DNA from: an uncultured virus (IMG/VR IMGVR_UViG_3300030333_003802)
Taxonomy: Duplodnaviria > Heunggongvirae > Uroviricota > Caudoviricetes
DNA length: 20,000 nucleotides
Virus record (IMG/VR): IMGVR_UViG_3300030333_003802
Location: 51,659 to 71,658 of that record
Reading direction: 5' to 3' (one strand)
In this document: in pieces, positions 4,823-18,415 of the stretch
How the letters are laid out: each line of letters opens with the position of its first letter
Position numbering within the stretch: the first letter of the stretch is position 1
The notes under the pieces: generated by a model
What the model was told of the DNA's origin: nothing
Databases searched by the model: none
The model's input: the letters and a program-made list of their open reading frames with translations, nothing else
Program-made: the position numbers and the translations under genes

Positions 4823-6382
4823 TTATTTCCAAATAGCGTGTGATTCTGGCATTTTATACTCAAAACCAGCTTCAGTTAATATCATATCAACTCTTTTATC
4901 AACACCTGAGTTCTCTAAATTCTGAACTCCAACGTAGATAGAAGTGTCTCTATTAACATCATTACCAATTAATGGTCTGTAAGCAACATTGTTCATGTTG
5001 ATAGCAGCGATTTTAACGTGTGAACCATCTAAGGCTATACATCTTGCAACGTTCATTTTACCATAAACTGTTGCAATTTCTGTTACGTCTAATCCCATTA
5101 CTTTCTTACGACCAGTAACTGCTAAGTCTGCACTAAAGCGATTAAAGTTATTACCATTATCGCCAACTGCAATATTGTTCTTAAAGAACCCACCTAGTTT
5201 ATGTAGCCAAGTGTACACAGCAGTACTACATAAGAATACTGTTGCTCCATCTTGATTATATCTAGGGTCAAAATATTGAGACATATCTTGTAAGAAGTCA
5301 TCAATAGATTTTGAAGCTAGGTCTAATGAAAAGATATTACCAAAATTCAAGATGTAATCAATTGCACCTTGAGTGTGGTTTACTGAACTATCTGTAACCT
5401 GTGAACTGAATAATCCAGCCCATTCAATGTCCCATTTGTGCTCAATAAGTTTTTCTTTCCATGTTCTAGCCCACTCATTTGGTTCGTATTTAAGAGCTGT
5501 TGCTCTAGCGGTATTTGTCATACCAAACTCGCTTCTAAAGATTTGAGTTTGTCCGTAACCAGTTGAGTATGGGTTATCTTTCCAAGACTCTCCAAGTAAT
5601 GAAGAACCTTCTCCATATGAAGTACCAACAACGTATGAACGTCTTTCTTCTAATGTTTCAGCAATATCTTCTGAATAAGCAACACATTGTGGTTTATCAC
5701 CAACATATGAAGCTGATTCTGAATTAGCTGGAACTCTTAGAATCTTAGCTGTTACAAGAGCTGGTTCAGCAGATGCGTGTCCAGTTCCTGAATTTGCAGA
5801 TAAGTCTATAGTTCCTGAAGCTGTAACAGCAGTAATTCTAATTAACATATAGTCATTAGGAGCACCGCCACCAGCTACATCACTCATAGGTACTTTTAGG
5901 ATTTGATTAGGTTGTAGGAATTGTGGTCTTGTACCAGGGTCTCCTACTTTGATTGCACCATTCGATTGTCCTTTGACGTTTTGAATGTTGCCTGCACTGT
6001 AATAATCAGTACAGAAATATAGTTTTACTTCTCCACCAAGTGATAAAGCACTATTGTCTGATTCCTTAATTTCAGCGTTATTAAGAACCACAGTTGGTCC
6101 TCCGCCATGTTGGAATCCAACTAAATATGCATATCTCTTCATGAACGAATGTCTCTTCTCAGTAAACTTGAAAGTTGGGTCATCCGTAGGTTTCTTAGCC
6201 ATTGTAGAAACGAGTCTAAAAAACGGAGTTTGAGCTAAAGCGAGTTCTGAAAATCTATCGCCAAAGTCATATCGTCTACGTAAATCACCAGTTAGAAAAG
6301 TATTAGCGTTAACTCCGCCAACAACTCTTCCTCTTTCAGTTAAACCTGTAGAAGTAGACAATGCTAAAGGTGTACTAGGCAT
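4823..6382 (-). CDS. Major capsid protein (SU10 MCP/DUF5309-like, likely HK97 fold)
   Basis: 519 aa following scaffold and portal, with motifs TPFFRLVS, QIFRSEFGMTNTARAT and ILTEAGFE..MPESHA. Very strong GAGGAGG RBS. Confidence 0.85.
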   Translation of the reverse strand: MPSTPLALSTSTGLTERGRVVGGVNANTFLTGDLRRRYDFGDRFSELALAQTPFFRLVSTMAKKPTDDPTFKFTEKRHSFMKRYAYLVGFQHGGGPTVVLNNAEIKESDNSALSLGGEVKLYFCTDYYSAGNIQNVKGQSNGAIKVGDPGTRPQFLQPNQILKVPMSDVAGGGAPNDYMLIRITAVTASGTIDLSANSGTGHASAEPALVTAKILRVPANSESASYVGDKPQCVAYSEDIAETLEERRSYVVGTSYGEGSSLLGESWKDNPYSTGYGQTQIFRSEFGMTNTARATALKYEPNEWARTWKEKLIEHKWDIEWAGLFSSQVTDSSVNHTQGAIDYILNFGNIFSLDLASKSIDDFLQDMSQYFDPRYNQDGATVFLCSTAVYTWLHKLGGFFKNNIAVGDNGNNFNRFSADLAVTGRKKVMGLDVTEIATVYGKMNVARCIALDGSHVKIAAINMNNVAYRPLIGNDVNRDTSIYVGVQNLENSGVDKRVDMILTEAGFEYKMPESHAIWK

Positions 6383-6410
6383 TTTATGTCCCTCCTCGGG
6401 GTTTGTTTAT

Positions 6411-7289
6411 TTACATTAACTCATCTAGCCCAGCGCCTTGCGATAGCAACTTGTCAAATACAGCATCGTCTACTGATTTTTCTTCTCTTTGTGTGTTCCC
6501 AGCTGATGCAACACTTTGAGGCATTTGTCTAACATTTTTCATTTGTTGGACTATCTCTTCTCTAGCACCTTCTGCTACTTGAGCATCTCGGTTTTCTCTA
6601 TTTTTGAGATAATATACATCCTCTAATGATAATCTATGTGATTTTGCGTAATCCATTAAATCATTATAGCTTTCTTCTGACATTTGATACTTTTGTTTAA
6701 AAGCATTTTCTTCAGAAGCTCTACGTGATTGTATAGATTGTTGTTTTGCATAATCACCTAATCTTCTTTGCACCACTCCATCAACTGTTGCATTAAACAA
6801 CTTTGCTGATGCCGAAGCAGGGTCTGACAAAGCATCGTCATAATCAAAAACGAAATCTTCATCTAAGCCAAGCTGCTCTTTTACGCTCTTAGGAGCCGAG
6901 CCGCCACCCTCAAAATAACCTCTCACATGAGAAATTAAATTAGGGTCTTCTTTCATTGCATTTAGTAAAGGCATATAAGGTTCTAACTCTTTTAAACGAG
7001 TGTTAAGTCGTTTAGCTTCTCGAGATGAATCCGAATATCTCTTTTCTAAATTAGCTACATCCTCATTAGGATTAGCTTTTTGCTCTACTTCAGGGTTCCC
7101 TTGTGGGGAAGTTATCTGTTCTTGTTGAGCTTCTTCTATTGGCTGTTCTATTACATCACCCATAACTTGTCTATCAAGCTGAGAAAAAAAATCTTCAGCC
7201 ACAGTATCTTGCTCTATAGGGGCTGCTTGTTCGGTTACCGCTCTTTCAGCGTCATCTACTAGCAGGTTGTCCTGTGTTATTTCACTCAT
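6411..7289 (-). CDS. Scaffolding protein
   Basis: 292 aa, acidic N-terminus and coiled coil (LEKRYSDSSREAKRLN), located between portal and capsid. Confidence 0.7.
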   Translation of the reverse strand: MSEITQDNLLVDDAERAVTEQAAPIEQDTVAEDFFSQLDRQVMGDVIEQPIEEAQQEQITSPQGNPEVEQKANPNEDVANLEKRYSDSSREAKRLNTRLKELEPYMPLLNAMKEDPNLISHVRGYFEGGGSAPKSVKEQLGLDEDFVFDYDDALSDPASASAKLFNATVDGVVQRRLGDYAKQQSIQSRRASEENAFKQKYQMSEESYNDLMDYAKSHRLSLEDVYYLKNRENRDAQVAEGAREEIVQQMKNVRQMPQSVASAGNTQREEKSVDDAVFDKLLSQGAGLDELM

Positions 7290-7321
7290 ACTGTACTCCT
7301 TCTAATTTACTGTATGTTTTT

Positions 7322-9565
7322 TTATTTATCAACACTATTTTTTTTTCTTTCTAGTGCCAATTCTTTTTCGTGCAAACTAACGGTATCTTGCATTACGCCT
7401 CTTAATAAACGTTGCTCTTGTTGTGTTTGCGATACTTCTTGTTCTATTTTCTTAGAACCTTTTTGAATTTTTTCTTTTATACCAGCTTGTACTAATTGTC
7501 GTTCTAATGTTTCTATTGTTCCAGACTGGTCTTTAATTTGTTCTTCCATTCCAGCAATTTGTGATTGCATTTGAGAATACATGCTTTTACGTTGCAATAA
7601 TGGTTTTTTATTTCTTATATCAGTTTGTTCAATCATAGCAATATCATCTATTAATCCCGATTGATACCATTTAAAATATTCATCTTGTAATGCCCATCTA
7701 TTAACTGGTTGTGTTGAACCTGCTATAATTCGTATATCAAATTTTGAAGTTTGATAATCATTATATCTTTCTACTACTTTTCCATAATCATTATAAATAG
7801 GAATGTTGATAGACACTTCTTGTACTTCGGCTTCACTAGCTCCTGCTTCTGGTTGAACAACTCTAAATACTTTTTGCGTAGTGTATGTAAATTGTGCTAC
7901 AGTTTTAAATATTTGTCCCATATGTTCTAAAGCTGGTTCTATGCAATTATTAACCCATTGTCTAATTCTTCGTGTTCCATATTCATCCATTGCTAACATA
8001 CCACGATAAGTTTCGTGACTATCTTGTCCAACACCTTGCATACTAGAAGATATACCGCTAATATATTCTATATCTGATTTACCTTGTTGTGTTATAGTGT
8101 AAAAAGCATTATTAATTGGTAAAGGTTGTATTGCGTTAGGAACATCAAATCCTTGTCTATATTTTAATAAAGCTCCAGGACTACTTGAATATTTTTCCCA
8201 TTCTTCTTCGTCAATAGCTCCTTCTGTATATAACCATCTTAAATTAGATGCTAAATTTGCATTATGTAACATAATTTGATGCGCTTTATTTATTTCTCTT
8301 TGTTTACCAATCATAGGTATAACAGCGCTAATAGGATATGGAGTATTTGTATGTTGATATGCGATAGGAATAATAGGATATTCTTCTATTGGCAATATAC
8401 TTTCATATAAATACATATCACCAGCTGATGCACATACTTTTATTTGAGTTTCAAAAAAATCTATAGCTTCTACTACTTGTTTTGCAAAAGCTTCCTCTTT
8501 CATTGACATATCAAAAGTAGCTTTATCCATAGTAGTTTGAATAGTTTTAGTTTGAGCTTGAATTAATTCGGCTTCCATTACTGCTTGCATTTCTTGTAAT
8601 TTAGACTGCATTTCCTTTTCGGCTTTTTGCAATTCTAATAAAGCTCTTTCTTCTAAAATTTCTCCCTCAGCTACTAAAGTATTTAGTTCTAGTTGTTTTT
8701 CTTTCATAGATACTTGCATTTCTGCTACCATATCTTGCATTTGCATTTCTGCTTGTTCTTTAATAGCTTTTAATTCTTCTTCTGTAGGAGGTTGACTTAA
8801 CCAAAGATTAACTCTAGCAATTTTTTCTTTTGAATATACTTCGTAAAAATCTAAGATTTCATCTTGCTCTCCCTCTAAAGTATAGGCTTCTCTTTCAACA
8901 TCTCCTGGTAATATTGCTTCTCCTTCGTGAACATCTCTCATAGAATATTGTTTTGATTGTGTTTGACCACTTGCTCTTACAATTTTTCTTTTATATTGAG
9001 GAAATAATTTTAATAAATGTGTTTTTGATAAGTTTTTTTGAATAATTATATAACTTGCATCACGAAATAAAAAATCTCTACTCATTGGGTCAACATAAAC
9101 ATCATAAGGGTCTATTGAATTAAATATTACTTCTCCCATACCTCTATCAGCATCAGGGTCTACATCAACTTTAAAATATCCAACGCCTTTTACAAGAGCG
9201 TCTTGTATAATTTGTCCAAATAAACTTTTACCATTAGAATTATGCCAACAATATTCAGCTATCATACTATGGACATGTGCTATATCAGTATCACTTCCAT
9301 CTGTTCCAATTGCTTGCCATCTAGGATTGTTTGCTGTAACAAAAAATTTCATAATATCAATCGCTGGAGTAATACGATTAATAATAAAATCTGGCATACC
9401 GCCTTCTTTTAAATCTTCTAATTCTTCAGCTGTTAATTGTTCATTTAAAAAGAAATCTAATCCTTTTTGTGAATCCATAAACCATTTTTTTCTATAATAA
9501 TTATTTGCTTTATCAAACAAATGTTTATTTACATCAGCTTTATTTTTTCTGCCTTTTTTAGCCAT
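7322..9565 (-). CDS. Portal protein (P22-like)
   Basis: 747 aa with INRITPAID, DPYDVYVDP.SRD..F.DA.Y, QREINK and a C-terminal coiled coil. Lies upstream of scaffold and capsid. Confidence 0.85.
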   Translation of the reverse strand: MAKKGRKNKADVNKHLFDKANNYYRKKWFMDSQKGLDFFLNEQLTAEELEDLKEGGMPDFIINRITPAIDIMKFFVTANNPRWQAIGTDGSDTDIAHVHSMIAEYCWHNSNGKSLFGQIIQDALVKGVGYFKVDVDPDADRGMGEVIFNSIDPYDVYVDPMSRDFLFRDASYIIIQKNLSKTHLLKLFPQYKRKIVRASGQTQSKQYSMRDVHEGEAILPGDVEREAYTLEGEQDEILDFYEVYSKEKIARVNLWLSQPPTEEELKAIKEQAEMQMQDMVAEMQVSMKEKQLELNTLVAEGEILEERALLELQKAEKEMQSKLQEMQAVMEAELIQAQTKTIQTTMDKATFDMSMKEEAFAKQVVEAIDFFETQIKVCASAGDMYLYESILPIEEYPIIPIAYQHTNTPYPISAVIPMIGKQREINKAHQIMLHNANLASNLRWLYTEGAIDEEEWEKYSSSPGALLKYRQGFDVPNAIQPLPINNAFYTITQQGKSDIEYISGISSSMQGVGQDSHETYRGMLAMDEYGTRRIRQWVNNCIEPALEHMGQIFKTVAQFTYTTQKVFRVVQPEAGASEAEVQEVSINIPIYNDYGKVVERYNDYQTSKFDIRIIAGSTQPVNRWALQDEYFKWYQSGLIDDIAMIEQTDIRNKKPLLQRKSMYSQMQSQIAGMEEQIKDQSGTIETLERQLVQAGIKEKIQKGSKKIEQEVSQTQQEQRLLRGVMQDTVSLHEKELALERKKNSVDK

Positions 9566-9573
9566 ATATTACC

Positions 9574-9888
9574 TTATTTTTTTTTCTTTCTATTTTTAAA
9601 TTTTTCAATTGCAGTACCTAACCCTAAACCAACTAATCCAGCTTTTCCGCCTTCTTCTTTTAGACGTTTTTCCACGATTTTTTGATAAGCTTTTCTTAAT
9701 GCTGGTGTAGCTACTTGCATTGTGTTTCTTGCAACTGAAGCTCCTCTTATATAAGGATTTGTTTTACCTAGCATTTTTGATGCATCTATAACTTTTTTTC
9801 CAGCTGGACTTTTTTCTAGCATTTCATATTTATTAGCTACTTCTTTAAATAACCTCATCATTCTTTTTGTTTCTTTTGCGTCGCTCAT
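9574..9888 (-). CDS. Hypothetical basic protein
   Basis: 104-aa ORF with GGAG RBS and a K-rich C-terminus. Confidence 0.6.
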   Translation of the reverse strand: MSDAKETKRMMRLFKEVANKYEMLEKSPAGKKVIDASKMLGKTNPYIRGASVARNTMQVATPALRKAYQKIVEKRLKEEGGKAGLVGLGLGTAIEKFKNRKKKK

Positions 9889-9903
9889 AATATTCTCCGT
9901 TAA

Positions 9904-10296
9904 TTAATCTCTTATCTCAAAATGAGGTAAGTCATCAAAGTTGTTGTCTTTTAATTCTGTATCTCTATCCCAATCTCCACCCCAACGAACAGTAAGTCCC
10001 ATTGAAGCTGCAATCCCCATAACAAATCCAGCAAAATATGTAAATCGTTCTCTATCTTTCCAATCTATTGGATAAGGAGCAACGTCTACAGCTAATGAAG
10101 GATATTGGTTATGTTTACCTTTAGGATATTGTAATTTACTAAACCCTTCTTCAAATAATTTGTTTTGTTCTTCTTCGCCACGATGACCTTGCAAAACAGT
10201 ACAATCAAAATCTTCTACTACTCTTTCAAATAGCTCAATTAATCTTGGGTCGCAAGTATTTAATTTTTCTTGTGATTTTTTACCGAAACTTGGCAT
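9904..10296 (-). CDS. Endolysin, M15 family L-Ala-D-Glu peptidase
   Basis: Motifs GHRG..EQ, KH....LAVD, WGGDW and D.PHFE, as in Ply500/T5-type M15 peptidases. Confidence 0.92.
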   Translation of the reverse strand: MPSFGKKSQEKLNTCDPRLIELFERVVEDFDCTVLQGHRGEEEQNKLFEEGFSKLQYPKGKHNQYPSLAVDVAPYPIDWKDRERFTYFAGFVMGIAASMGLTVRWGGDWDRDTELKDNNFDDLPHFEIRD

Positions 10297-10931
10297 TAGT
10301 ATGAATCCATTCCAGACATACGTCTTAAACGCATCATTTCTTCATTTTCTTTAGCACGTTTTTGTTTTTCTTCATAATTTCTCATAGTTTCAGAAGGCAT
10401 TTTAGGGTTTATTATTTCTTGATTCGTAGCTTGTCTCATTGATGGTTCTTTTTTTTTCTTACTAAAGTGTTTTCCTAATTGTTTTCTTATTACTTCTTGT
10501 CTATGTTGTAAAAAACGTTCTTCGTCAGCTTGCATTATTTTTTTTGCTTCTTCTTCAATCCATTTATCTTGTATAATATTTTCTATAGAATCACGTTTTG
10601 CTTTTAAAAATTGTTGCGATTCTAATGCTTTTTCAGGATTAAAGTTATCTAAAGTTGCTTGTCTAGTTGCTGGTCCAAATACGCTATCTACTGATGTTTT
10701 ATAAAAACCTCGTTCTTTTAAAATTTGTTGCCATTCACCAATTTGTGATTTTGTTAAATAAGTAGATGGTTCTAAATTTTGTCTAACTTGTCCTAATATA
10801 AAATCTTCCAAACCAAAATCTCTAATCCAAGATTGAGCTTCTTTAAATTTAGGACTTTTATTTTGTTCTACCATTTGTCTTTGTGCAAACGCTTTGTTAG
10901 ACTCTCCTGGATATTGTGTATATTTTGGCAT
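10296..10931 (-). CDS. Protein with a central peptidoglycan-binding-like (PG_binding_1) segment
   Basis: WQQILKERGFY...VDSVFGPATRQA resembles the PGBD consensus (LQ..L...GY....DG.FG..T..A). Adjacent to the endolysin. Confidence 0.6.
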   Translation of the reverse strand: MPKYTQYPGESNKAFAQRQMVEQNKSPKFKEAQSWIRDFGLEDFILGQVRQNLEPSTYLTKSQIGEWQQILKERGFYKTSVDSVFGPATRQATLDNFNPEKALESQQFLKAKRDSIENIIQDKWIEEEAKKIMQADEERFLQHRQEVIRKQLGKHFSKKKKEPSMRQATNQEIINPKMPSETMRNYEEKQKRAKENEEMMRLRRMSGMDSY

Positions 10932-10941
10932 AACTTATTCC

Positions 10942-11157
10942 TTATTTTTTATAAACTTTTTCTGCTCCTGCAATTCCAAACGAACCTAATGTTACCCAAA
11001 CAAATGAATTATAAATATTATCGTTAATTATAATTTCTTGTCCTAATAAACCTGTTACTAAATCTACAACTCCAAATACGCACATAAGTGCAAAAGAAAT
11101 AAATCCAATAATAGATTTTTCATTATATTCGTTTTTATCTTTAAATATTGCCCACAT
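10942..11157 (-). CDS. Holin-like small membrane protein
   Basis: 71 aa with two hydrophobic segments and a basic C-terminus, two genes upstream of the endolysin. Confidence 0.6.
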   Translation of the reverse strand: MWAIFKDKNEYNEKSIIGFISFALMCVFGVVDLVTGLLGQEIIINDNIYNSFVWVTLGSFGIAGAEKVYKK

Positions 11158-11169
11158 CTTTCTTCTCCT

Positions 11170-12741
11170 TTAGGCTACTAGCCAACTTTTTGCTTTTCTT
11201 TTAGGTTTATACCATTTTGGCTTCTTTTTATCACCGTTTTGCTTATAATTAGGCGGAAAAGCGTGTAAATTTGCATAATATAAGCTCTCAATTGTGTCAT
11301 CATGAGCCATTCTTGGTCCAAATGTAATGATTTCATTAATTAAATCAAACATATTTTCTCTAAAATATAAGGAACCTACACTAAAAATGCCAGATAAACC
11401 TGAATAAATTCTATTTCTTTTCTGTTGTCCTCCTGGTTTTTCAGGAATTACGCTAATATCATAACGATTAATTCTTCTTCTTTCGTCATTCAAAGCTTGA
11501 AAAATACTTCTATTCATAGCAACATCTTCTACTGTTGCACTATTGCAATGGTATTTATTATACAATTCAATAATATAATCTACCACTCCTTTTTTGTCAA
11601 AAACTTTTCCATCCGCATCTTTTGCTCCCAAAGTAGGAATACTTCTATGTCTTTCATATTCTAGTACATAACGATTATTGTTTGCATCAACTGCTATAAC
11701 CATTATAACGCTAAAGTCAGATTCTTTTGTATCTATGTCTGTAGCTGGGTCGCAACCAATAAATGTAGTAACAGGAACACTTTCACCATCTTTAACAATA
11801 TATCCCATATTATCATCTTTGTTCCATTCGTAATAACCTTCCCAATATTTAATATGTTTTTGTGTCCAAATAGAATCTTCTTCAGATTGTACTTGCATCA
11901 TATATTCTTGGTAAAACTTAGAAGGTGTTCCACTATCTTGATAGAATTTTTTCTTTTCTTCTAATTTTTCTAATGGAAACCAACCAGGCCACAAAGAAGT
12001 TCCATCGGGCAATATAGCTTTATAAGTAATTACTCTCCACGCAAAATCTTTTTGGTTTTCTCCTTGACGCTCGTAATTAACGATAAGATTATTGATGAAG
12101 CTATCAAAATGCACAGGAGTACCATTGACCCTAAGACGACCAGTATGAGGCTCAATAGCAGGATAAACAACAGCAGTAACGAGATTACTGTTTTTAGCCC
12201 TTGCTTCAGCCGTGATAGTATTCGCTTCGTGTTCAAAGTCGTCAAGTATGATGAGGTCGTATCTTTTATGCAATTTAGCACCTCCTCTAATACCCGCAAC
12301 ATTTGATTTACTAATGAGTTTACATCCATTTTTCAACTCCACATCTTCTTCTGTCCATTTTTTCCCTTTCAAACTACCAAAGTAGTATTTTATTTTATCG
12401 TTATACTCAAAATGGTATTTAATATAATCCATATTACCAGTACTAAGTTTTTGCGTAGCAGATACCCATGCATAAAATAACATATCGTCTTGAGGGCAAA
12501 AACAAAAGTCTTTAATAATTGAGCATTTAGTAAGCACAGTTTTTCCATGACCACGAGGCAAAATAACTGCTAATTGTTTTACTTCTGGGTTATCAATAGC
12601 ATCAGCCATCTCGTAATGAAATGGAGGTGTTTCGCTTCGCATAAAATCATCAGGAAGAAATAACTTCCCGAATGCAATCATATCTTTACTTGCTAGTCTT
12701 AGCGCTTCTTCCGCTTTGCTTATGTTCTGGATTTTGTTCAT
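11170..12741 (-). CDS. terL: Terminase large subunit
   Basis: Walker A PRGHGKT, Walker B LIILDDFE, GTP coupling motif, and RNase H-like nuclease motifs IGCDPA, DFS and HDD. Confidence 0.95.
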   Translation of the reverse strand: MNKIQNISKAEEALRLASKDMIAFGKLFLPDDFMRSETPPFHYEMADAIDNPEVKQLAVILPRGHGKTVLTKCSIIKDFCFCPQDDMLFYAWVSATQKLSTGNMDYIKYHFEYNDKIKYYFGSLKGKKWTEEDVELKNGCKLISKSNVAGIRGGAKLHKRYDLIILDDFEHEANTITAEARAKNSNLVTAVVYPAIEPHTGRLRVNGTPVHFDSFINNLIVNYERQGENQKDFAWRVITYKAILPDGTSLWPGWFPLEKLEEKKKFYQDSGTPSKFYQEYMMQVQSEEDSIWTQKHIKYWEGYYEWNKDDNMGYIVKDGESVPVTTFIGCDPATDIDTKESDFSVIMVIAVDANNNRYVLEYERHRSIPTLGAKDADGKVFDKKGVVDYIIELYNKYHCNSATVEDVAMNRSIFQALNDERRRINRYDISVIPEKPGGQQKRNRIYSGLSGIFSVGSLYFRENMFDLINEIITFGPRMAHDDTIESLYYANLHAFPPNYKQNGDKKKPKWYKPKRKAKSWLVA

Positions 12742-12943
12742 TTTCTAACTTTTGCTCTTTTTTTACTATTTTTTCCATGTATTTTTTTAACTTATCTTCA
12801 TCTTTATTCATATGAATATAGTTATTAACTACATTATCAATTAGCGCTACATGTCTATGTAACATACCTAACTGCATAGTTAGTTCTTTAATTCCTCTAA
12901 CTAAATCATGCTTAGTGAGAGTTTTTTTATTCATTTTAGCCAC
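12686..12943 (-). CDS. Hypothetical protein
   Basis: 85-aa ORF (start may be the ATG at 12934), overlapping the annotated terL start. Confidence 0.6.
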   Translation of the reverse strand: MAKMNKKTLTKHDLVRGIKELTMQLGMLHRHVALIDNVVNNYIHMNKDEDKLKKYMEKIVKKEQKLENEQNPEHKQSGRSAKTSK

Positions 12944-13076
12944 CTTGTCCTACCTTTCTTTTTTTATAGTTTGGACTTTCTTTAGTATAGTATTTTGTAT
13001 TATTACTCATACCTTGTCTAGTCTTTTTCTTTCTTTTAACCCTTTTTTCAAAGGTTCCAAATACTCTTCTTCTCAT
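12936..13076 (-). CDS. Small highly basic protein (46 aa)
   Basis: Manual translation MRRRVFGTFEKRVKRKKKTRQGMSNNTKYYTKESPNYKKRKVGQGG. The ATG directly abuts the upstream TAA. Not in the ORF track. Confidence 0.65.
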   Translation of the reverse strand: MRRRVFGTFEKRVKRKKKTRQGMSNNTKYYTKESPNYKKRKVGQGG

Positions 13077-13145
13077 TTATTTTTTCTTACCTTTTTTCTT
13101 TTTTGGTCTACCTGGTTTTCTATATGTTCCTGGTCCTTTTGGCAT
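13077..13145 (-). CDS. Tiny basic peptide (22 aa)
   Basis: Manual translation MPKGPGTYRKPGRPKKKKGKKK, preceded by a GGGAGA RBS. Fills the intergenic gap exactly. Confidence 0.6.
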   Translation of the reverse strand: MPKGPGTYRKPGRPKKKKGKKK

Positions 13146-13146
13146 T

Positions 13147-14031
13147 TTAATTCTCCCAACAGTTTATTCTATCTTTAGTAAATTCCATAGTAATCCAACC
13201 CGTACGTTGAATCCCATAGAAGCTATAACGAGCATAGTCTGCGTATCTGAGGAACGACCCGCCTCTTACATACCATTTTCGTTTTAGACTTTCTTCTCCG
13301 TCTTCTATTGTTAATGAATCAATTGGCTTACAATACAACTGATGATTATGTCCTAAAAAGTATACATCGCCATCAGAATAAACCGAAGCCATTTTATCCA
13401 ATTCTGTGTCTCCATTTTTAGCTCCACTCTTTCCGTGTCCACTAACAAGAAACCAATCTTTGTCGCCAATAGTTATTTGTGCGTATCCAGGCAATCTGAA
13501 ATATGGAACATCCATTTCACTTGCTAACGTTTTACATACATCAAAATCTAGTATATTAAAACTTCTTAGATAGTCGTGATTCCCTCCTCTTATAAATAGG
13601 CACTTATCCTGTATGGGTTGTACCAGTTTTAAGAAGCTTAGATATTGCTCTTCTGGTGGAATACTTTGCCCTCTTTGATTTATTTTATAATTAGGGGGAA
13701 TCAGTTCTATCATATCTCCATTACCAAACCATCGTGCATTTGGGTCTTCGTATATAATTTTAATTGCCTCTTGAAATTTTTTCAAATCAAATTCGTGTGC
13801 TCCTACGTGTATATCCGTCAATCCATGTACTCGTAGTTTTTCGTCTGATTGTATTTTAAATAATTTTCCTGGTTCTATGTGCTTCTTGTCATATTCTTTA
13901 ACATCAGAAGGTATTGGTATAGAAAACCATTTCCCGCAAGATTTACAGCTAAATTGTTGTTTAACAGTATCTTTGTTGCGTTTTTTACCTTCTTTTTTTG
14001 TCAACATACTACTACAATGTGGACATATCAT
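13147..14031 (-). CDS. Calcineurin-like metallophosphoesterase with N-terminal Zn ribbon
   Basis: Motifs DIHVG, GDMIE, GNHD, HG and GHNH, plus N-terminal CPHC...CKSC. Confidence 0.88.
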   Translation of the reverse strand: MICPHCSSMLTKKEGKKRNKDTVKQQFSCKSCGKWFSIPIPSDVKEYDKKHIEPGKLFKIQSDEKLRVHGLTDIHVGAHEFDLKKFQEAIKIIYEDPNARWFGNGDMIELIPPNYKINQRGQSIPPEEQYLSFLKLVQPIQDKCLFIRGGNHDYLRSFNILDFDVCKTLASEMDVPYFRLPGYAQITIGDKDWFLVSGHGKSGAKNGDTELDKMASVYSDGDVYFLGHNHQLYCKPIDSLTIEDGEESLKRKWYVRGGSFLRYADYARYSFYGIQRTGWITMEFTKDRINCWEN

Positions 14032-14810
14032 TTTCTTTCCTCCTCGGAAGTTGTTTCTGGAAGTATTGCTCTAGAAGCTCCTTCTATCTCTTCAGGACTA
14101 AATCCTTGGAACATTCCAACTACTCCAGTTTCTATTTTCTTAACTTGATTACCTAGCGTACCGATTGCTTTTCCTAGTTCTTTTAAAGATTGCAATGCAA
14201 TATTCTGGTCTTCACTTGTATCAGCTAGTTGCTTTAGGGAACCTAATATATATGCATGGTCAATCCCTAGCTCTTTTGCTATTTCTTTTGAAGTTTTTTC
14301 TATTTCACTCATTACTCGCTCCTGTTTAAGTAATACTACAGCTTTTTTTCTAGCCGTGTTACGATTTTTTTCAGTAAATGCTTTCATATAAGCACTCACA
14401 GCATCTTTTCCCACTGCGACGCTAGTCGCAAAAATTTTTTCTCTGTTTGTACATTTGGACCTCTCCTTCACCCTACTAGATGTATTCTTGATTTTGGTGC
14501 TAAATGTGTAGCGATTTGGGTGTTTCTGAAAGTCGGTGTCCATGTAAGTTTTCTTAGAATTGATAAATGTGCCAACTATGGTTCTTACATATCCTTTAGA
14601 TTGTTTATAGTTTTTAGAATCTTTTGGATGCGATAGATTACTGGAAACCTTTAAAAGCTGAACAATACGACCATCATCACTCTTAACCCAATCCCCTTGT
14701 TTAGCATCTCTCCATTCGGAGTGAAGTATCCCTTTGGGATGGTCCTTTAAAAACTCCTCTTTTGTATCGTATACGTAATGACGTACTTGTTTAATTTTTC
14801 TACTTTCCAC
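14028..14810 (-). CDS. Probable terminase small subunit with N-terminal extension
   Basis: The C-terminal half (REKIFA...SAYMKAF...A..LLK..RV...ILGSLKQLA...ALQSLKELGK.IG) has a TerS-like HTH and oligomerisation pattern. Lies upstream of terL. Confidence 0.55.
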   Translation of the reverse strand: MESRKIKQVRHYVYDTKEEFLKDHPKGILHSEWRDAKQGDWVKSDDGRIVQLLKVSSNLSHPKDSKNYKQSKGYVRTIVGTFINSKKTYMDTDFQKHPNRYTFSTKIKNTSSRVKERSKCTNREKIFATSVAVGKDAVSAYMKAFTEKNRNTARKKAVVLLKQERVMSEIEKTSKEIAKELGIDHAYILGSLKQLADTSEDQNIALQSLKELGKAIGTLGNQVKKIETGVVGMFQGFSPEEIEGASRAILPETTSEEERK

Positions 14811-15096
14811 GCTTCGCTAATTGTTTGTGTAAAGATTCAATCAAATACATCACATCTTTGTGAATCCAATACTTCTTTCCATTGATTTCTATGGGTACAC
14901 TACTAACTCCTTCGTCAGCATCGCCATCATTTTCTACATATTCCATTGCCATATCTTCATCTTCTAAGATTTCTTTAGACAATATCCTTTCTAATTTAAC
15001 CAAGCGTTCAATATGTCCCAAGATTCGTTCCTGGTCCTCTTGTGATAACCTAGCTAACCAATTAATTGATGTACCCATACATTTTTTCCTTGACAT
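14800..15096 (-). CDS. Hypothetical protein
   Basis: 98-aa ORF overlapping the next gene. Start uncertain. Confidence 0.6.
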   Translation of the reverse strand: MSRKKCMGTSINWLARLSQEDQERILGHIERLVKLERILSKEILEDEDMAMEYVENDGDADEGVSSVPIEINGKKYWIHKDVMYLIESLHKQLAKRGK

Positions 15097-15164
15097 AACA
15101 CATAAAACACTTTATCTTCAAGTAGTCTACGTAGCTACCGCAGATACTAGTAGATAATAGTAGA

Positions 15165-15368
15165 TTATGTAGATTTCTTTTTCTTTGGTTCTTTCTTTTT
15201 CTTTAATTGTTTACTTTGTTCTTCTTTTACTTTCAAGATAGCAGCAGCTAACAATTTTTCATTCATCTGTTGTTTTTTAATCAGTTCTTCCTGTTCCTTT
15301 CTAGCTACTCCAGTTAAACCTTCTAATCCGCTTAAATCTTTACTAGTTATATATCCGTCATCTGACAT
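15165..15368 (-). CDS. Hypothetical protein, first gene of the leftward arm
   Basis: 67 aa, AAGGAG RBS, K-rich tail. Confidence 0.65.
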   Translation of the reverse strand: MSDDGYITSKDLSGLEGLTGVARKEQEELIKKQQMNEKLLAAAILKVKEEQSKQLKKKKEPKKKKST

Positions 15369-15389
15369 AAAAACTCCTTTGTTTCTACA

Positions 15390-15418
15390 AATCTACGCAT
15401 ACCCCATGTTATTTCCAA
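15390..15418 (-). promoter_or_regulatory. Candidate leftward sigma70-type promoter
   Basis: TTGGAA-17 bp-TAGATT on the minus strand, upstream of the ATG at 15368. Confidence 0.35.
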
Positions 15419-15533
15419 GAAAAAAATGCAGTATTTTGATATGCACCTACATACACACGGGGCCCCCCCTTTCTGGAGTTATTGACATATAAGTTTTCCG
15501 TTGGAGAAAATTTATAAACCATGGAGGGTCGTT

Positions 15534-15863
15534 ATGTTTGATGATTTGTATAAACATCTTGGCTTCGCAATGGTGGCAGGTGTGCAAGACAACATAAATG
15601 CTAGAAATAATGGTATTCGTGTGTCTCAGCAGCCGTGGCAAATTCAACAAGCGTATCAAAACGCTGCTGGTTGTCTAATTCAAATGCAATTAGATGCTCA
15701 AGGCAAAGGTTCTTATCAAAGAACTCAATTGCCAGCCTTACCAGGCTTACCAGCTCAACCTCAGGTGGGAACACCGGTTGACGTTGAAACTCGTTTCCAA
15801 GCTTTAGAAACGGGTGTAGCCGACATCAAAGCGGACCTACAGCAGTTACTGGCGAAGTCTTAA
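15534..15863 (+). CDS. Hypothetical protein, first gene of the rightward arm
   Basis: ATG at 15534 after GGAGG. Q/P-rich with a C-terminal coiled coil. GC is visibly higher than in the flanks. Confidence 0.75.
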   Translation: MFDDLYKHLGFAMVAGVQDNINARNNGIRVSQQPWQIQQAYQNAAGCLIQMQLDAQGKGSYQRTQLPALPGLPAQPQVGTPVDVETRFQALETGVADIKADLQQLLAKS

Positions 15864-15928
15864 AACTTCGAAGGGTAGTAGAGTGTTCATAGGTTGAGAC
15901 GCCGAAGCTCTCGAGCACTCTACTCACC
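15853..15928 (+). terminator. Tandem hairpins after the 15534 gene (terminator or 3' stabiliser)
   Basis: CGAAGT/ACTTCG (15853-15870) and AGTAGAGTGTTC/GAGCACTCTACT (15877-15888/15913-15924), followed by T-rich sequence. Confidence 0.55.
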
Positions 15929-15962
15929 AGGACTTTTCTAATTTATTATTATTAACAGTATC

Positions 15963-16120
15963 TTATACACAGCAGATACGGTAATAATGTTGATAATATG
16001 TGTATATATTGTGGATATGTGGATAATATGTGGATACATAATACCATAGTTATATATAGCCTATGTGTATAACATGGGGATAAACTAGAAAGGAGACAAA
16101 AATGCGTATAATGTGTAAAA
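15963..16120. repeat. Cluster of ~10 DnaA boxes (candidate origin or DnaA-binding locus)
   Basis: Perfect TTWTNCACA matches at 15963 (+) and 16018, 16064, 16112 (-). One-mismatch copies at 15988, 15999, 16010, 16029, 16075 and 16103 (-). Confidence 0.75.
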
Positions 16121-16224
16121 CATGTCATACTATTACAACAATATGTTGTAGCAGATGTGCACAAAGAGAGCTTTACAATACTATAAGTGCATTACTAAAA
16201 GAATTTATAGAACATAGTAAGTAA
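16102..16224 (+). CDS. 40-aa Cys-rich (CxxC...CxxC) mini-protein
   Basis: Manual translation MRIMCKTCHTITTICCSRCAQRELYNTISALLKEFIEHSK, with AAAGGAG RBS at 16089-16095. Confidence 0.55.
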   Translation: MRIMCKTCHTITTICCSRCAQRELYNTISALLKEFIEHSK

Positions 16225-16247
16225 CAGCTCAAATACATGGTGTAATA

Positions 16248-16363
16248 GATATTGAGATAGTATAGAATTATGAAGACAAGGGTAGAAATTATTAACATCT
16301 ACACATAATACTTATAGGTAAAAGATTCACCAAATCCTATAACTATCTCTCTATCTTAATATC
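16248..16363 (+). ncRNA. Candidate small structured RNA / cis element
   Basis: A 13-bp closing stem GATATTGAGATAG/CTATCTTAATATC encloses inner stems GTAGA/TCTAC and TTATAGG/CCTATAA. Confidence 0.4.
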
Positions 16364-16412
16364 ATTTCCTTAATAATGTAGATAAGAAATAAAAAAGAAG
16401 GAGGTGATATAC

Positions 16413-16664
16413 ATGGGTAGACATTACTACTTAGTCTTTGTTGTTATTCCAACTACTACATCGTTGGTTACTGATAAAGACTATAAAATGAGATTATTAG
16501 GGTCAGTACGAGCTGATAATTCCATTGAAGCTTGTCATGAAGCGTCTATGTCATATGATATAGATATTGACAGGTTGAAGGTTGTGCTTTTCAAGAAGGC
16601 GCATGATGTTTGGAGTATAGAAACATATTCTGAACGTTATGTTACTCTTAAAAGACTCAACTAG
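16413..16664 (+). CDS. Hypothetical protein
   Basis: ATG at 16413 after an AAGGAGGTG RBS. Confidence 0.7.
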   Translation: MGRHYYLVFVVIPTTTSLVTDKDYKMRLLGSVRADNSIEACHEASMSYDIDIDRLKVVLFKKAHDVWSIETYSERYVTLKRLN

Positions 16665-16950: not shown

Positions 16951-17153
16951 CTATCGGAGAATTAAGTTATAATAAGCGTGATAATCTAATGCAACATTAT
17001 AGAGATTCATATCTAGAATTAAATAAAATAGAATTAACTCCTACTGATGAAGCAATATTAATAAGAAATTATTCAGTTGAAGAAATCTATGATATGATTA
17101 ATCAAATGGATATAGAATTAATGAAAGTACGCCTTAGAGGTAATAGGTGTTAA
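16947..17153 (+). CDS. Hypothetical protein
   Basis: 68 aa, AAGGAG RBS, ATGA overlap with the upstream gene. Confidence 0.65.
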   Translation: MTIGELSYNKRDNLMQHYRDSYLELNKIELTPTDEAILIRNYSVEEIYDMINQMDIELMKVRLRGNRC

Positions 17154-17161
17154 TGTTTTCA

Positions 17162-17296
17162 TTGGGCGTGATATTACCTTAGTTAGGAATATTATCAATT
17201 ATTATTCTACCTCTTCACGCTCAAATTTAGTGGGGATTTGTCTCCTTTTTAATATCATATTATATCTCATATATATCGTTATGATAAATCTCCACT
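17162..17296 (+). ncRNA. Two large-loop hairpins carrying anti-RBS sequences
   Basis: Stems 17162-17171/17215-17224 and 17229-17242/17283-17296, with G-U pairs valid on the plus strand. They contain TTCTACCTCTT and TTTGTCTCCTTT. Confidence 0.55.
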
Positions 17297-17309
17297 TTAA
17301 AAAGAATTA

Positions 17310-18211
17310 AGGTAAGCGGGTTTAGTGGATAGCGTCTACTTGTAAAAAAGGAAACCCAGTAACAAGATAGGCTTACCTAGATTTGTCCTAATCAGACATT
17401 AAATGATTCGGTTGTATATAATCGTTAAATAAACTTGGAAACAAGGATAAAGTGTTAACTTAGTCTGAAAGAGCTAATTTAATGCGACATTATTTATAGT
17501 GTTTAAGTATGCAATTGGAATACATAGAAAACTATTAAGTAAGTCCTTCAAGGCGCTTAGTAGGAGTCTATATTGGTGCATCAACATCAATTGAGCTAGT
17601 AATAGCAACAGGAATAATCCATAGGATATGACATAATGGTGTAGGAGCCAGGTTGTTGTATTCAGTCGGTGTATAGATGCTTATGCGAAAGTGTAAGTAT
17701 AAGACAGCCAAGACCATGTAAACCTTTTCCTATAAGGAACATAGAAATGTGCTAATCAATAGATTTCTCAAAAGGAAGTCCTGATTGCTATTTCAAGCGC
17801 ACATTTCATTTGATAGTCTATTCAAAGCAAATAGTGATGAATAGCCGAGTTGATGGAGATGCTTGCATTTAAAGTCAATAGGCAGTATGACGAGTGATTG
17901 GCAAAACCAATCGGAAAAAGTCTTGAAACTTCTGAGAGCATAGAGCCCTCGAGTATCTTTGAAATAGAAGATTCGTAGTGAACCCCAAGTTCGCTAGGTA
18001 TTCCGAAATGTTATTCATTGGGAGGCATCCTAATAATAATTCAGTAGGGGTAGAAATAACTCAGAAGAAAGAGTGATAGGCGATACCTATTGGGCTTGAT
18101 ATAATACTTGGTGAATAAAAGCTAAGTGGATATGCCTCCTAACAAATAAGGGAGTTTTAGGAAAAATCCTAAGCTAAAGTTATATCATTGTAATCCGTAA
18201 TCTCAGGATTC
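17310..18211 (+). ncRNA. Giant structured ncRNA, GOLLD-like
   Basis: About 900 nt with no ORF, raised GC, many helices with G-U pairs, GNRA tetraloops, long-range and crossing pairings, and a terminal hairpin with a GUAAUCUCA loop. The family assignment rests on recollection of GOLLD size and 3' architecture, not on a search. Confidence 0.7.
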
Positions 18212-18250
18212 CAGTTTAAAACTTAAATAGATAAACAGAAAGAGGTAGAT

Positions 18251-18415
18251 ATGAAAGAACGAAAAGTTATATCAGTAAGTAAAAAAAGAAAAACTATGAT
18301 GGTAGTAGATGTTGAAACAGTACCAAAGAAAAAAAATAGAACAGGTAAGCCTTATAAAATTTCTACTACAAAACATATTAAACTTGATAAATCTCTGTTG
18401 AAAGAGGGTGAATAA
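18251..18415 (+). CDS. Small basic hypothetical protein (54 aa)
   Basis: Manual translation MKERKVISVSKKRKTMMVVDVETVPKKKNRTGKPYKISTTKHIKLDKSLLKEGE, with AGAGGT RBS. Confidence 0.65.
   Translation: MKERKVISVSKKRKTMMVVDVETVPKKKNRTGKPYKISTTKHIKLDKSLLKEGE

What the first reader, a model, noticed from the sequence alone, without database searches (positions are those of the whole stretch)
17310..18211. ~900-nt ornate, pseudoknotted phage ncRNA (GOLLD-like or a new giant RNA class)
Seen in sequence: an ORF-free block in a gene-dense phage, filled with helices. These include AGGTAAGC/GCTTACCT (17310/17371) enclosing GGGTTT/AAACCC; GNRA hairpins CTTG-GAAA-CAAG (17434), GCTA-GTAA-TAGC (17595) and a 10-bp GAAA-capped stem (17677-17700); GAAATGTGC/GCACATTTC (17744/17799); CTATTCA/TGAATAG (17818/17838); GATTGG/CCAATC (17896); CTTCTGAG/CTCAGAAG (17929/18060); TGATATAA/TTATATCA (18097/18180); and a terminal AATCC-GTAATCTCA-GGATT (18192-18210). 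G-U pairs indicate the plus strand. Established: GOLLD (~800 nt) and ROOL (~600 nt) are large phage-associated ncRNAs of unknown function, reported to form RNA-only multimeric cages. Inference: this is a GOLLD relative with a possibly divergent 5' domain. No flanking tRNA is visible, although tRNAs often accompany GOLLD.
Basis: partly seen in the sequence, partly recalled or inferred. Interest (0 to 1): 0.9.

Follow-up and report, generated by a model that had tools for sequence, protein, structure and literature searches.

The report
Divergent GOLLD RNA in marine phage
The gene-free block is a full-length copy of GOLLD, a known giant phage RNA that builds RNA-only cages; it belongs to a divergent marine branch that standard catalogue thresholds miss, so it is a real but fairly ordinary find.

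Summary
Window 17154-18250 has no ORF over 49 aa, all ten listed helices sit at the stated coordinates, and the + strand folds far better than shuffles (z -7.3, against -2.5 for the minus strand).

It is a GOLLD RNA, not a new class.
- The 3' half (17744-18209) matches Rfam GOLLD over the whole model (1-416/416, E 1.4e-31). Its 116 bits fall below the curated cut-off of 150, so a default Rfam scan reports nothing.
- The first two thirds of the 5' half match a sequence profile built only from canonical GOLLD 5' domains (E 1.1e-10), including the conserved GAAA loop.

Seven relatives in marine viral contigs form a sub-clade. The four members scored reach 106-127 bits, all below cut-off. On seven distinct rows, 47 of 214 predicted pairs keep pairing through changes on both sides.

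The conserved RNA is 17379-18211 (833 nt).

Differences from the solved env-38 GOLLD: one P21 hairpin instead of two, conserved hairpins in the linker, and no tRNA nearby.

Metatranscriptome contigs cover the RNA at much higher depth than its flanks.

This scan has noted GOLLD about 1400 times on other DNA, so interest is low to moderate.

The parts
17232..17250 (+). Terminator-like hairpin plus T-run (GGGGATTTGTCTCC TTTTT) that closes the upstream small-ORF operon.
   Evidence: Consensus scan. The stretch around it (window 17197-17296) is 89% identical in the closest relative G001. Function is inferred.
17280..17285 (+). Possible -10 box (TATGAT) of the GOLLD promoter. This is inference only.
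   Evidence: Read from the sequence. The hexamer and its surroundings are kept in G001. No -35 box is convincing, and no transcription start was mapped.
17310..17378 (+). Lineage-specific 5' hairpin (AGGTAAGC...GCTTACCT enclosing GGGTTT/AAACCC). It is not part of the conserved GOLLD core.
   Evidence: Folds at -19.5 kcal/mol and is unique in the record. It is absent from G001 and replaced by unrelated sequence in L246-L251.
17379..17743 (+). GOLLD 5' domain (the 'cap' domain in the solved env-38 structure), about 365 nt.
   Evidence: nhmmer profile of 15 canonical 5' domains, with this window left out: 17386-17523 at E 1.1e-10 and 17590-17626 at E 0.0018. The reciprocal sub-clade profile hits 17 of 34 canonical loci. 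Helices 2-17 carry compensatory changes.
17434..17445 (+). CTTG-GAAA-CAAG hairpin, the conserved GAAA tetraloop (called L11a in the env-38 structure paper).
   Evidence: It lies inside the motif AAATAAACTNNGAAANNAGGATAAAGTG, found in at least 120 viral contigs. The L11a name is from PMC12286853, section 7. One pair of this stem changes on both sides within the sub-clade (helix 4).
17744..17807 (+). First hairpin of the conserved 3' domain (GAAATGTGC/GCACATTTC outer stem, UCAAAAG loop at 17768-17774).
   Evidence: Rfam GOLLD model positions 1-64. Helices 18-20 are 95-98% paired and have 6 pairs with changes on both sides.
17808..17915 (+). Variable linker. It is disordered and faces the cage interior in env-38. 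Here it holds two hairpins: CTATTCA/TGAATAG at 17818-17844 and GATTGG/CCAATC at 17896-17912.
   Evidence: Unpaired region of the Rfam model, with a 47-nt insertion. Its length and sequence vary among relatives. GATTGG/CCAATC is kept in 5 of 7 rows. The first hairpin is replaced in L247-L250 by CTTTT/AAAAG, with CTTTA/TAAAG in L250. No tRNA is present.
17929..18067 (+). Long-range helix CTTCTGAG (17929-17936) / CTCAGAAG (18060-18067) enclosing three hairpin arms.
   Evidence: Rfam bracketed helix, model positions about 129-138 with 289-298. Helix 23 is 100% paired, with one pair changed on both sides.
17980..17992 (+). GAAC-CCCAA-GTTC hairpin, matching the hairpin called L20 in the structure papers (a kissing-loop partner in solved cages).
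   Evidence: Aligned to Rfam model positions about 186-207, with the outer stem shortened. The L20 role is from PMC12286853. Its partner here was not identified.
18017..18034 (+). Single P21 hairpin ATTGGGA-GGCA-TCCTAAT. The neighbouring P21a hairpin of env-38-type GOLLDs is missing.
   Evidence: Rfam model positions 235-247 are deleted here, and 235-251 in G002. The GGCA loop is invariant in 7 of 7 rows, and the stem changes on both sides at 3 pairs (helix 28). Canonical loci such as L002 carry GGCA on their second P21 hairpin.
18097..18187 (+). TGATATAA/TTATATCA helix enclosing two hairpins. The second hairpin is 37 nt here where the model consensus has 17.
   Evidence: Rfam model positions about 329-395. 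Helices 30-32 are 100% paired, with 6 pairs changed on both sides. The extra arm TTTTAGGAAAAATCCTAAGC is absent in L246, L249 and L251.
18192..18210 (+). Terminal hairpin AATCC-GTAATCTCA-GGATT, the conserved GUAAUCUCA loop (L27, a tertiary hub in env-38).
   Evidence: Rfam model positions 401-416. The stem changes on both sides at 2 pairs (helix 33). The L27 role is from PMC12286853.
18251..18415 (+). First downstream ORF (54 aa, unknown function) with its ribosome-binding site. It marks the end of the gene-free block.
   Evidence: ORF list. No PHROG match. The same start is conserved in G001.

Best explanation
Window 17379-18211 (+ strand, 833 nt) encodes a full-length GOLLD RNA of a divergent marine-phage sub-clade. 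It has the two-domain build of the family:
- a 5' domain at 17379-17743;
- a 3' domain at 17744-18211;
- a variable linker at 17808-17915 inside the start of the 3' domain.

By homology with the two solved GOLLDs (env-38, a 14-mer; Streptococcus agalactiae, a 12-mer), the RNA most likely self-assembles without protein into a closed homo-oligomeric cage. The 5' domains would form the caps and the 3' domains the rings, with the linker hairpins pointing inward. The remaining GGCA-loop P21 hairpin would form the self-kissing contact between the two half-shells.

What is shown: identity as GOLLD, conserved structure, strand, and presence in RNA libraries.
What is inferred: cage formation (my estimate about 0.65) and copy number (12 or 14, open).

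The biological role of the family is unknown. My best guess, at about 0.3, is an infection-time RNA compartment or scaffold that holds or shields an RNA or translation-related cargo. Here that cargo is not a neighbouring phage tRNA.
For: Family identity
- Rfam GOLLD (RF02032) matches 17744-18209 on the + strand: 116.1 bits, E 1.4e-31, model 1-416/416. The UCAAAAG loop, the long-range helix and the GUAAUCUCA terminal loop all align.
- A profile built from 15 canonical 5' domains, without this window, hits 17386-17523 (E 1.1e-10) and 17590-17626 (E 0.0018) in the same order.
- The reciprocal sub-clade profile hits 17 of 34 canonical loci, 13 of them at E 1e-7 or better, over profile positions about 14-249.
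- The 5' motif with the GAAA loop occurs in at least 120 viral contigs.

Conserved structure
- Seven relatives were found in viral contigs.
- On 7 distinct rows, 214 predicted pairs are 96.5% paired.
- 47 pairs change on both sides, against 25.3 +/- 3.1 in shuffles (0 of 500 reach it) and 4-8 in slid controls.
- Fold z is -7.3 on the + strand and -2.5 on the minus strand.

RNA libraries
- Run X2: one contig covers 17400-18098 at depth 556 and another 18069-18151 at depth 290. Error-free contigs of the flanking genes have depth 4-26.
- Run X4: 17422-18045 at depth 189, flanks 3.5-20.
- Run X16 (another study): a roughly 95% relative covers 17460-18197 at depth 74.6, with no flank cover.

Cage behaviour of GOLLDs comes from PMC12286853 (passages and section 7) and PMC12990946 (passages).
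Against: - The score is under Rfam's gathering cut-off (116 against 150), so a default scan reports nothing.
- The last third of the 5' domain (17627-17743) has no sequence-profile match to canonical GOLLDs. The 5' domain is also about 55-60 nt shorter than theirs.
- One of the two P21 hairpins that tie the env-38 half-shells together is missing, so env-38-like assembly cannot be assumed.
- No tRNA lies in the record, whereas 20 of 34 Rfam-positive GOLLD loci have one within about 1.3 kb.
- The RNA evidence comes from assembled contigs. These cannot show strand, ends or true level. The runs were chosen because they hold this stretch. Related strains could also inflate depth on the conserved RNA (tool caveats).
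- No assembly experiment exists for this sequence.
Confidence: 0.93

Rival explanations
1. A new giant RNA class unrelated to GOLLD.
For: No Rfam family reaches its gathering score anywhere in the window. blastn finds nothing in 50,697 phage records. 17627-17743 is not matched by the canonical 5' profile.
Against: There is a full-length GOLLD covariance-model match at E 1.4e-31. Sequence-profile matches run both ways between this sub-clade and canonical 5' domains. The shared GAAA and GUAAUCUCA motifs occur in more than 120 GOLLD-bearing contigs each.
Confidence: 0.02
2. A decaying, non-functional GOLLD remnant. The low score and missing hairpin would then reflect erosion.
For: This window and its three scored relatives are the four lowest of the 38 GOLLD copies scored here (106-127 bits, against 139-323 for the other 34). 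P21a is deleted and two stems are shortened.
Against: The structure is kept by compensatory change in relatives down to 64% identity (47 pairs). The missing hairpin is missing in both sub-clade copies whose Rfam alignment was seen (this window and G002), so the loss is old and stable. A 280-bit GOLLD (L027) and the solved S. agalactiae GOLLD also have a single P21 hairpin. The RNA is assembled at high depth in RNA libraries of 3 studies.
Confidence: 0.03
3. The block holds two units: the GOLLD proper (17379-18211), and an independent upstream element at 17310-17378. That element could be a leader hairpin that stabilises the transcript, an attenuator, or a small inserted element.
For: The hairpin is stable (-19.5 kcal/mol) and unique in the record. 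It is absent from the 92% relative G001, as a clean indel of about 72 nt. Other sub-clade members carry unrelated sequence of similar length at the same position.
Against: No sequence conservation, no covariation and no Rfam match. No T-run follows it, so it is not a typical terminator. Its transcript status is unknown.
Confidence: 0.5
4. Small proteins are encoded on the minus strand (ORFs 17474-17608, 17568-17717 and 17875-18018, of 44-49 aa).
For: These frames are open.
Against: Relatives differ by indels not divisible by three inside these spans, for example 1-nt and 2-nt gaps between near-identical copies. Substitutions preserve base pairs rather than a reading frame. The minus-strand fold is weak.
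Confidence: 0.01

Closest known systems
GOLLD RNA, env-38 type (Rfam RF02032; 833 nt; 14-mer cage; PMC12286853)
   Same: Marine and phage-borne. The conserved core here is also 833 nt. It has a two-domain build, a 5' domain with the GAAA loop motif, and a 3' domain with the UCAAAAG loop, the long-range helix, a GGCA-loop P21 hairpin and the GUAAUCUCA terminal loop.
   Different: - 116 bits, below the 150 cut-off.
- P21a hairpin absent.
- Stems at model positions about 160-207 shortened.
- Linker 47 nt longer, with conserved hairpins.
- 20-nt larger penultimate arm.
- 5' domain about 55-60 nt shorter, with its last third not alignable by sequence.
- No tRNA neighbour (env-38 lies downstream of a Met-tRNA according to PMC12286853).
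Streptococcus agalactiae GOLLD (700 nt; 12-mer; as summarised in review PMC12990946)
   Same: Only one hairpin in the P21 arm, so a single L21-L21'' kissing contact between the two planes.
   Different: According to the review, the S. agalactiae RNA lacks P9, P11a-c and P21b. This RNA keeps the P11a GAAA hairpin and an env-38-like 5' domain. Its retained hairpin carries the GGCA loop that env-type loci have on the second (P21b) hairpin.
L027, a canonical marine GOLLD in a viral contig (280 bits)
   Same: It also aligns with model positions 234-246 deleted and has a single P21 hairpin. It has the best blastn match to this window's 5' motif among the first set of loci searched.
   Different: It scores well above the cut-off, and its linker is short.
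ROOL RNA (RF03087)
   Same: A large phage-associated RNA that forms RNA-only cages.
   Different: No ROOL match at E up to 10 in 17100-18300. Its sequence and fold are unrelated.

Membership tests
GOLLD (RF02032) | Statistically significant, full-length match to the covariance model of the conserved 3' domain | tested here: met
   116.1 bits, E 1.4e-31, model 1-416/416, + strand.
GOLLD (RF02032) | Reaches Rfam's curated gathering score (150 bits). This is an annotation cut-off, not a biological trait. | tested here: not met
   116.1 bits here. Relatives score 106.3, 107.3 and 127.4. A default scan returns nothing. I do not treat this as defining, because the E-value and the independent 5' domain homology settle relatedness.
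GOLLD (RF02032) | Conserved loops of the 3' domain: UCAAAAG in the first hairpin and GUAAUCUCA in the terminal hairpin | tested here: met
   Both are present and aligned, at 17768-17774 and 18197-18205. Both are kept across the sub-clade, with AUAAUCUCA or AUAGUCUCA in some members.
GOLLD (RF02032) | Long-range helix enclosing the multi-hairpin core of the 3' domain | tested here: met
   CTTCTGAG/CTCAGAAG at 17929/18060 aligns to the bracketed helix. It is 100% paired in 7 rows, with one pair changed on both sides.
GOLLD (RF02032) | 5' domain homologous to that of canonical (env-type) GOLLDs, including the GAAA loop | tested here: met
   nhmmer E 1.1e-10 and 0.0018, in the same order. Reciprocal hits in 17 of 34 loci. 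The motif is found in at least 120 contigs. The last third of the domain is not matched.
GOLLD (RF02032) | Two P21 hairpins (L21a and L21b self-kissing loops), as in env-38 | tested here: not met
   Only one hairpin (18017-18034). Model positions 235-247 are deleted, and likewise in G002. This is not universal in the family: L027 and the S. agalactiae GOLLD (PMC12990946) also have one.
GOLLD (RF02032) | Encoded by a phage or prophage | tested here: met
   Terminase, portal, major head protein and endolysin lie in the window. The source is a virus record.
GOLLD (RF02032) | tRNA genes beside or inside it (frequent, not defining) | tested here: not met
   0 tRNA in the window and in the whole record. 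0 tRNA in 10 loci of the sub-clade. Among 34 Rfam-positive loci, 20 have a tRNA and 10 have neither a tRNA nor a tmRNA.
GOLLD (RF02032) | Self-assembly into an RNA-only homo-oligomeric cage | not testable with these tools
   Needs in vitro transcription plus mass photometry or cryo-EM.
ROOL (RF03087) | Match to the family covariance model | tested here: not met
   Not among the 5 matches at E up to 10 in 17100-18300.

The most novel reading that the evidence does not exclude
This sub-clade is a distinct architectural type of GOLLD. It combines an env-38-like cap domain with a single half-shell kissing hairpin and a structured, tRNA-free linker. It would therefore assemble into a cage of different copy number or openness than the two solved forms, carrying its own conserved linker hairpins inside as the functional payload rather than a tRNA.
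Probability: 0.15. Interest if true: 0.55.

Novelty: new member of a known kind. Interest (0 to 1): 0.25.

Why it matters
It shows that a whole marine branch of GOLLD RNAs sits under the Rfam cut-off. In batch scans these copies are even lost to the speed filters, so catalogue-based counts of GOLLD in marine viromes are too low.

The RNA mixes features of the two solved GOLLD cages: an env-38-like cap and one P21 hairpin as in the 12-mer. That makes it a cheap natural test of which elements set cage copy number.

It adds nothing yet to the open question of what GOLLD does, beyond showing that neither tRNA neighbours nor tRNA in the linker are needed.

Tried and rejected
- Rfam at gathering threshold on the whole window: 0 hits. 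This reflects the cut-off, not absence.
- blastn ('distant') of 17160-18250 against 50,697 phage records: no match.
- Batch cmscan of relatives. L242 and L243 gave no hit in a 23.6-kb batch, and L247 none in a 7.9-kb batch. Yet the same copies score 106-107 bits when searched alone or through the genome search. So the six pattern-positive loci without a hit (L008, L018, L052, L058, L070 and L022) cannot be called either way.
- Regex distance from the AAGUCU motif to GTGGATA, as a proxy for P21 size: only 23 of 117 loci matched the regex, so it was dropped.
- The long-range helix 1 of RNAalifold (alignment columns 7-11 with 741-745) has no pair changed on both sides and is probably spurious.
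- I looked by eye for the partner of the L20 loop (CCCAA) in the linker and the 5' domain. No consistent covarying partner was found. Not resolved.
- RNA contigs. In X2 no contig covers 17318-17399, and the high-depth contigs start at 17400, 17407, 17422 and 17460 in different runs. This hints that the abundant RNA lacks the 17310-17378 hairpin, but uncovered stretches in contigs prove nothing. The 'joint' 17959>18043 has only 24 letters on one side and long unrelated loose ends, so it belongs to other organisms' GOLLDs.
- Rfam on the GC-richer stretch 15360-16420: nothing at E up to 1.
- The search of earlier findings by place and by sequence: nothing on this genome or on look-alikes.
- Host: the terminase finds only 23-25% identical proteins in phages of Rhodobacteraceae, Vibrio and Methylophilales. 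No host call is made.

Full report
**The observation**

Between the ORF ending at 17153 and the ORF starting at 18251, the only frames of 40 aa or more are three minus-strand ORFs of 44-49 aa. For 17300-18215 the + strand folds at -257 kcal/mol, against -200.2 +/- 7.8 for 20 dinucleotide shuffles (z -7.33). The minus strand reaches only z -2.46. So the block is real, structured, and read on the + strand.

**What it is**

A default Rfam scan of the window at gathering thresholds returns nothing. With E-value reporting on 17100-18300, GOLLD (RF02032) matches 17744-18209 on the + strand over the entire model (1-416/416). The score is 116.1 bits, E 1.4e-31, against a gathering score of 150 (the same hit came through the genome search). 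The other four matches have E above 1 and are noise.

The alignment recovers these family features:
- the first hairpin with its UCAAAAG loop (GAAATGTGC/GCACATTTC);
- the unpaired linker;
- the long-range helix (CTTCTGAG/CTCAGAAG);
- the inner hairpins;
- the TGATATAA/TTATATCA helix;
- the terminal GUAAUCUCA loop.

The Rfam model covers only the conserved 3' half of GOLLD, so I tested the 5' half separately. I ran Rfam on 40 of those loci. 34 had a GOLLD hit, 33 of them at or above 150 bits (range 159-323), and one (L032) at 138.7. The 5' flanks of these 34 fall into several sequence groups.

A profile built from the largest group (15 loci, window excluded) hits the window at 17386-17523 (E 1.1e-10, profile positions 61-191). 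It hits again, in the same order, at 17590-17626 (E 0.0018, positions 264-300). The matched part contains the CTTG-GAAA-CAAG hairpin. The motif around it occurs in at least 120 viral contigs. It corresponds to the GAAA loop that the env-38 structure paper calls L11a (PMC12286853, section 7).

The reverse search, using a profile of this window's sub-clade against the 34 canonical loci, hits 17 of them. 13 are at E 1e-7 or better, over profile positions about 14-249.

The last third of the 5' domain (17627-17743) is not matched by sequence, and the domain is about 55-60 nt shorter than in the canonical group. The domain is homologous, with a divergent tail.

**Relatives and covariation**

blastn against all fetched loci, then two patterns taken from invariant stretches, found seven relatives in viral contigs plus one truncated copy. 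Identity to the window over the aligned stretch with its flanks ranges from 87% (G001; 92% over the GOLLD) through about 81-83% (L247-L250) to 64% (G002 and L251).

The members that could be scored are all under the Rfam cut-off:
- G001: 106.3 bits;
- G002: 107.3 bits;
- L249: 127.4 bits.

In batch scans these copies are lost even to the speed filters.

RNAalifold on seven distinct rows predicts 214 pairs. 96.5% of cells are paired. 47 pairs change on both sides while staying paired, against 25.3 +/- 3.1 in shuffles (0 of 500 reach 47) and 4-8 when partners are slid by 1-3 columns. Compensatory pairs are spread over both domains. With seven related sequences the shuffle control is generous, but the slid control, which keeps relatedness, is decisive.

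**Boundaries**

Conservation starts at 17379 (AGATTTG) and ends at 18211, giving 833 nt.

However, it is cleanly absent from G001, and the other members carry unrelated sequence of similar length in its place. It is a lineage-specific addition, not part of the GOLLD core.

A terminator-like hairpin (17232-17250) and a TATGAT hexamer (17280-17285) lie upstream and are shared with G001. This suggests a promoter that would put the extra hairpin in a 5' leader. That is inference only.

**Differences from known GOLLDs**

1. Model positions 235-247, the first hairpin of the P21 arm, are deleted here and in G002. What remains is one hairpin, ATTGGGA-GGCA-TCCTAAT (18017-18034). Its GGCA loop is invariant in 7 of 7 rows and its stem changes on both sides at three pairs. 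Canonical loci such as L002 carry GGCA on their second P21 hairpin. In env-38, the loops of both P21 hairpins form self-kissing contacts that join the two half-shells (PMC12286853, section 7). A single P21 hairpin is not new. The 280-bit locus L027 has one. According to the review PMC12990946 (passages), the S. agalactiae GOLLD, which forms a 12-mer, lacks P21b as well as P9 and P11a-c. This RNA combines an env-38-like 5' domain with a single P21 hairpin.
2. The linker is 47 nt longer than the model's. It contains hairpins kept within the sub-clade: GATTGG/CCAATC in 5 of 7 rows, and a first hairpin that is replaced by CTTTT/AAAAG, or CTTTA/TAAAG in L250.
3. The penultimate arm is larger (37 nt against 17), an extension that three members lack.
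4. There is no tRNA in the window, in the whole record, or in 10 loci of the sub-clade. Among the 34 Rfam-positive loci, 20 have a tRNA within about 1.3 kb, several of them inside the linker. Four more have only a tmRNA, and 10 have neither. So the lack of tRNA is a minority state, not an anomaly.

**Context**

The window carries a phage structural, lysis and packaging module on the minus strand: large and small terminase subunits, portal, major head protein and endolysin. From about 15500 there is a + strand module of small unknown ORFs, ending in a Cas4-like exonuclease. GOLLD sits about 2 kb into the + strand module.

The terminase has only 23-25% identical relatives in cultured phages. The stretch occurs in marine metagenomes of 12 studies.

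**Expression**

All four runs laid on the window are RNA libraries kept as assembled contigs.
- X2: one contig covers 17400-18098 at depth 556 (5 differences) and another 18069-18151 at depth 290. Error-free contigs of the flanking phage genes have depth 4-26.
- X4 (same sample as X2): 17422-18045 at depth 189, against 3.5-20 for the flanks.
- X16 (another study): a roughly 95% relative covers 17460-18197 at depth 74.6, with no flank cover.
- X19 (a third study): pieces of relatives.

DNA carry-over would give even depth, so this fits an abundant stable RNA. The caveats are real, though. Contigs show neither strand nor ends. The runs were chosen for holding this stretch. Related strains could inflate the conserved part.

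**How it most likely works**

Shown: it is a conserved, structured, + strand GOLLD RNA that is present in RNA libraries.

Inferred from the two solved family members: it folds into a cap domain and a ring domain, and self-assembles into a closed RNA-only cage. The linker hairpins would sit inside and the GGCA hairpin would link the halves (about 0.65). The copy number, 12 or 14, is open.

The role of GOLLD is unknown in the literature I read. The authors suggest encapsulation of tRNAs, ribosomes or other cargo. I adopt a cargo-holding or scaffold role as a weak best guess (about 0.3), and note that here the cargo cannot be a neighbouring phage tRNA.

**Novelty**

This is a new member, and a small sub-clade, of a known family. 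This scan has already logged 1403 notes mentioning GOLLD in at least 1153 genomes, including other divergent copies in tRNA-less phages. None is on look-alikes of this stretch. Weinberg et al. 2009, the original description, is cited from recall only. I did not open it.

Noticed in passing
whole record G000 (window = 51659-71658); unit 1 at record 7969-15108, unit 2 at window 4823-14810: The 71.6-kb record holds two complete head and packaging gene sets (major head protein, portal, large and small terminase). They are only 29-35% identical to each other. It is probably two related phage genomes of about 30-40 kb joined in assembly, not one genome, despite the '100% complete' label. Only one GOLLD is present.
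   Followed up: partly
window 15482-15930: A near-consensus promoter (TTGACA, 18 nt, GAAAAT) is followed by a GC-richer ORF (15535-15863, GGAGG ribosome-binding site, no PHROG match) and a long hairpin at about 15876-15925. RNA contigs cover it at depth 20-26 in X2 and X4. It is likely the first early gene of the + strand module.
   Followed up: partly
window 15990-16050: A cluster of repeated ATATGTGGATA-like words lies in the gene-free stretch after that ORF. It looks like iterons or operator sites.
   Followed up: no
L016:623-689: A Pistol ribozyme (74.7 bits, gathering score 34.5) lies about 300 nt upstream of a GOLLD 3' domain (990-1372), where the 5' domain would be expected.
   Followed up: no
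L002, L024, L035, L036 (beside the GOLLD 3' end): Phage-borne tmRNA genes (73-106 bits) lie on the opposite strand next to canonical GOLLDs.
   Followed up: no
L025, L040, L056, L032, L034, L006, L003, L037, L038, L067 (inside the GOLLD match): In these lower-scoring GOLLDs a tRNA sits inside the linker of the 3' domain. This is the arrangement that the review describes for Mycolicibacterium.
   Followed up: no
window 4327-4336: A run of 10 N interrupts the 355-aa structural ORF at 3669-4736. The record holds 20 N in all.
   Followed up: no
window 10942-11174 and record 7237-7468: A 233-nt stretch, 80% identical, is shared between the two halves of the record. It lies beside each terminase gene and overlaps a 71-aa membrane-protein ORF.
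   Followed up: no
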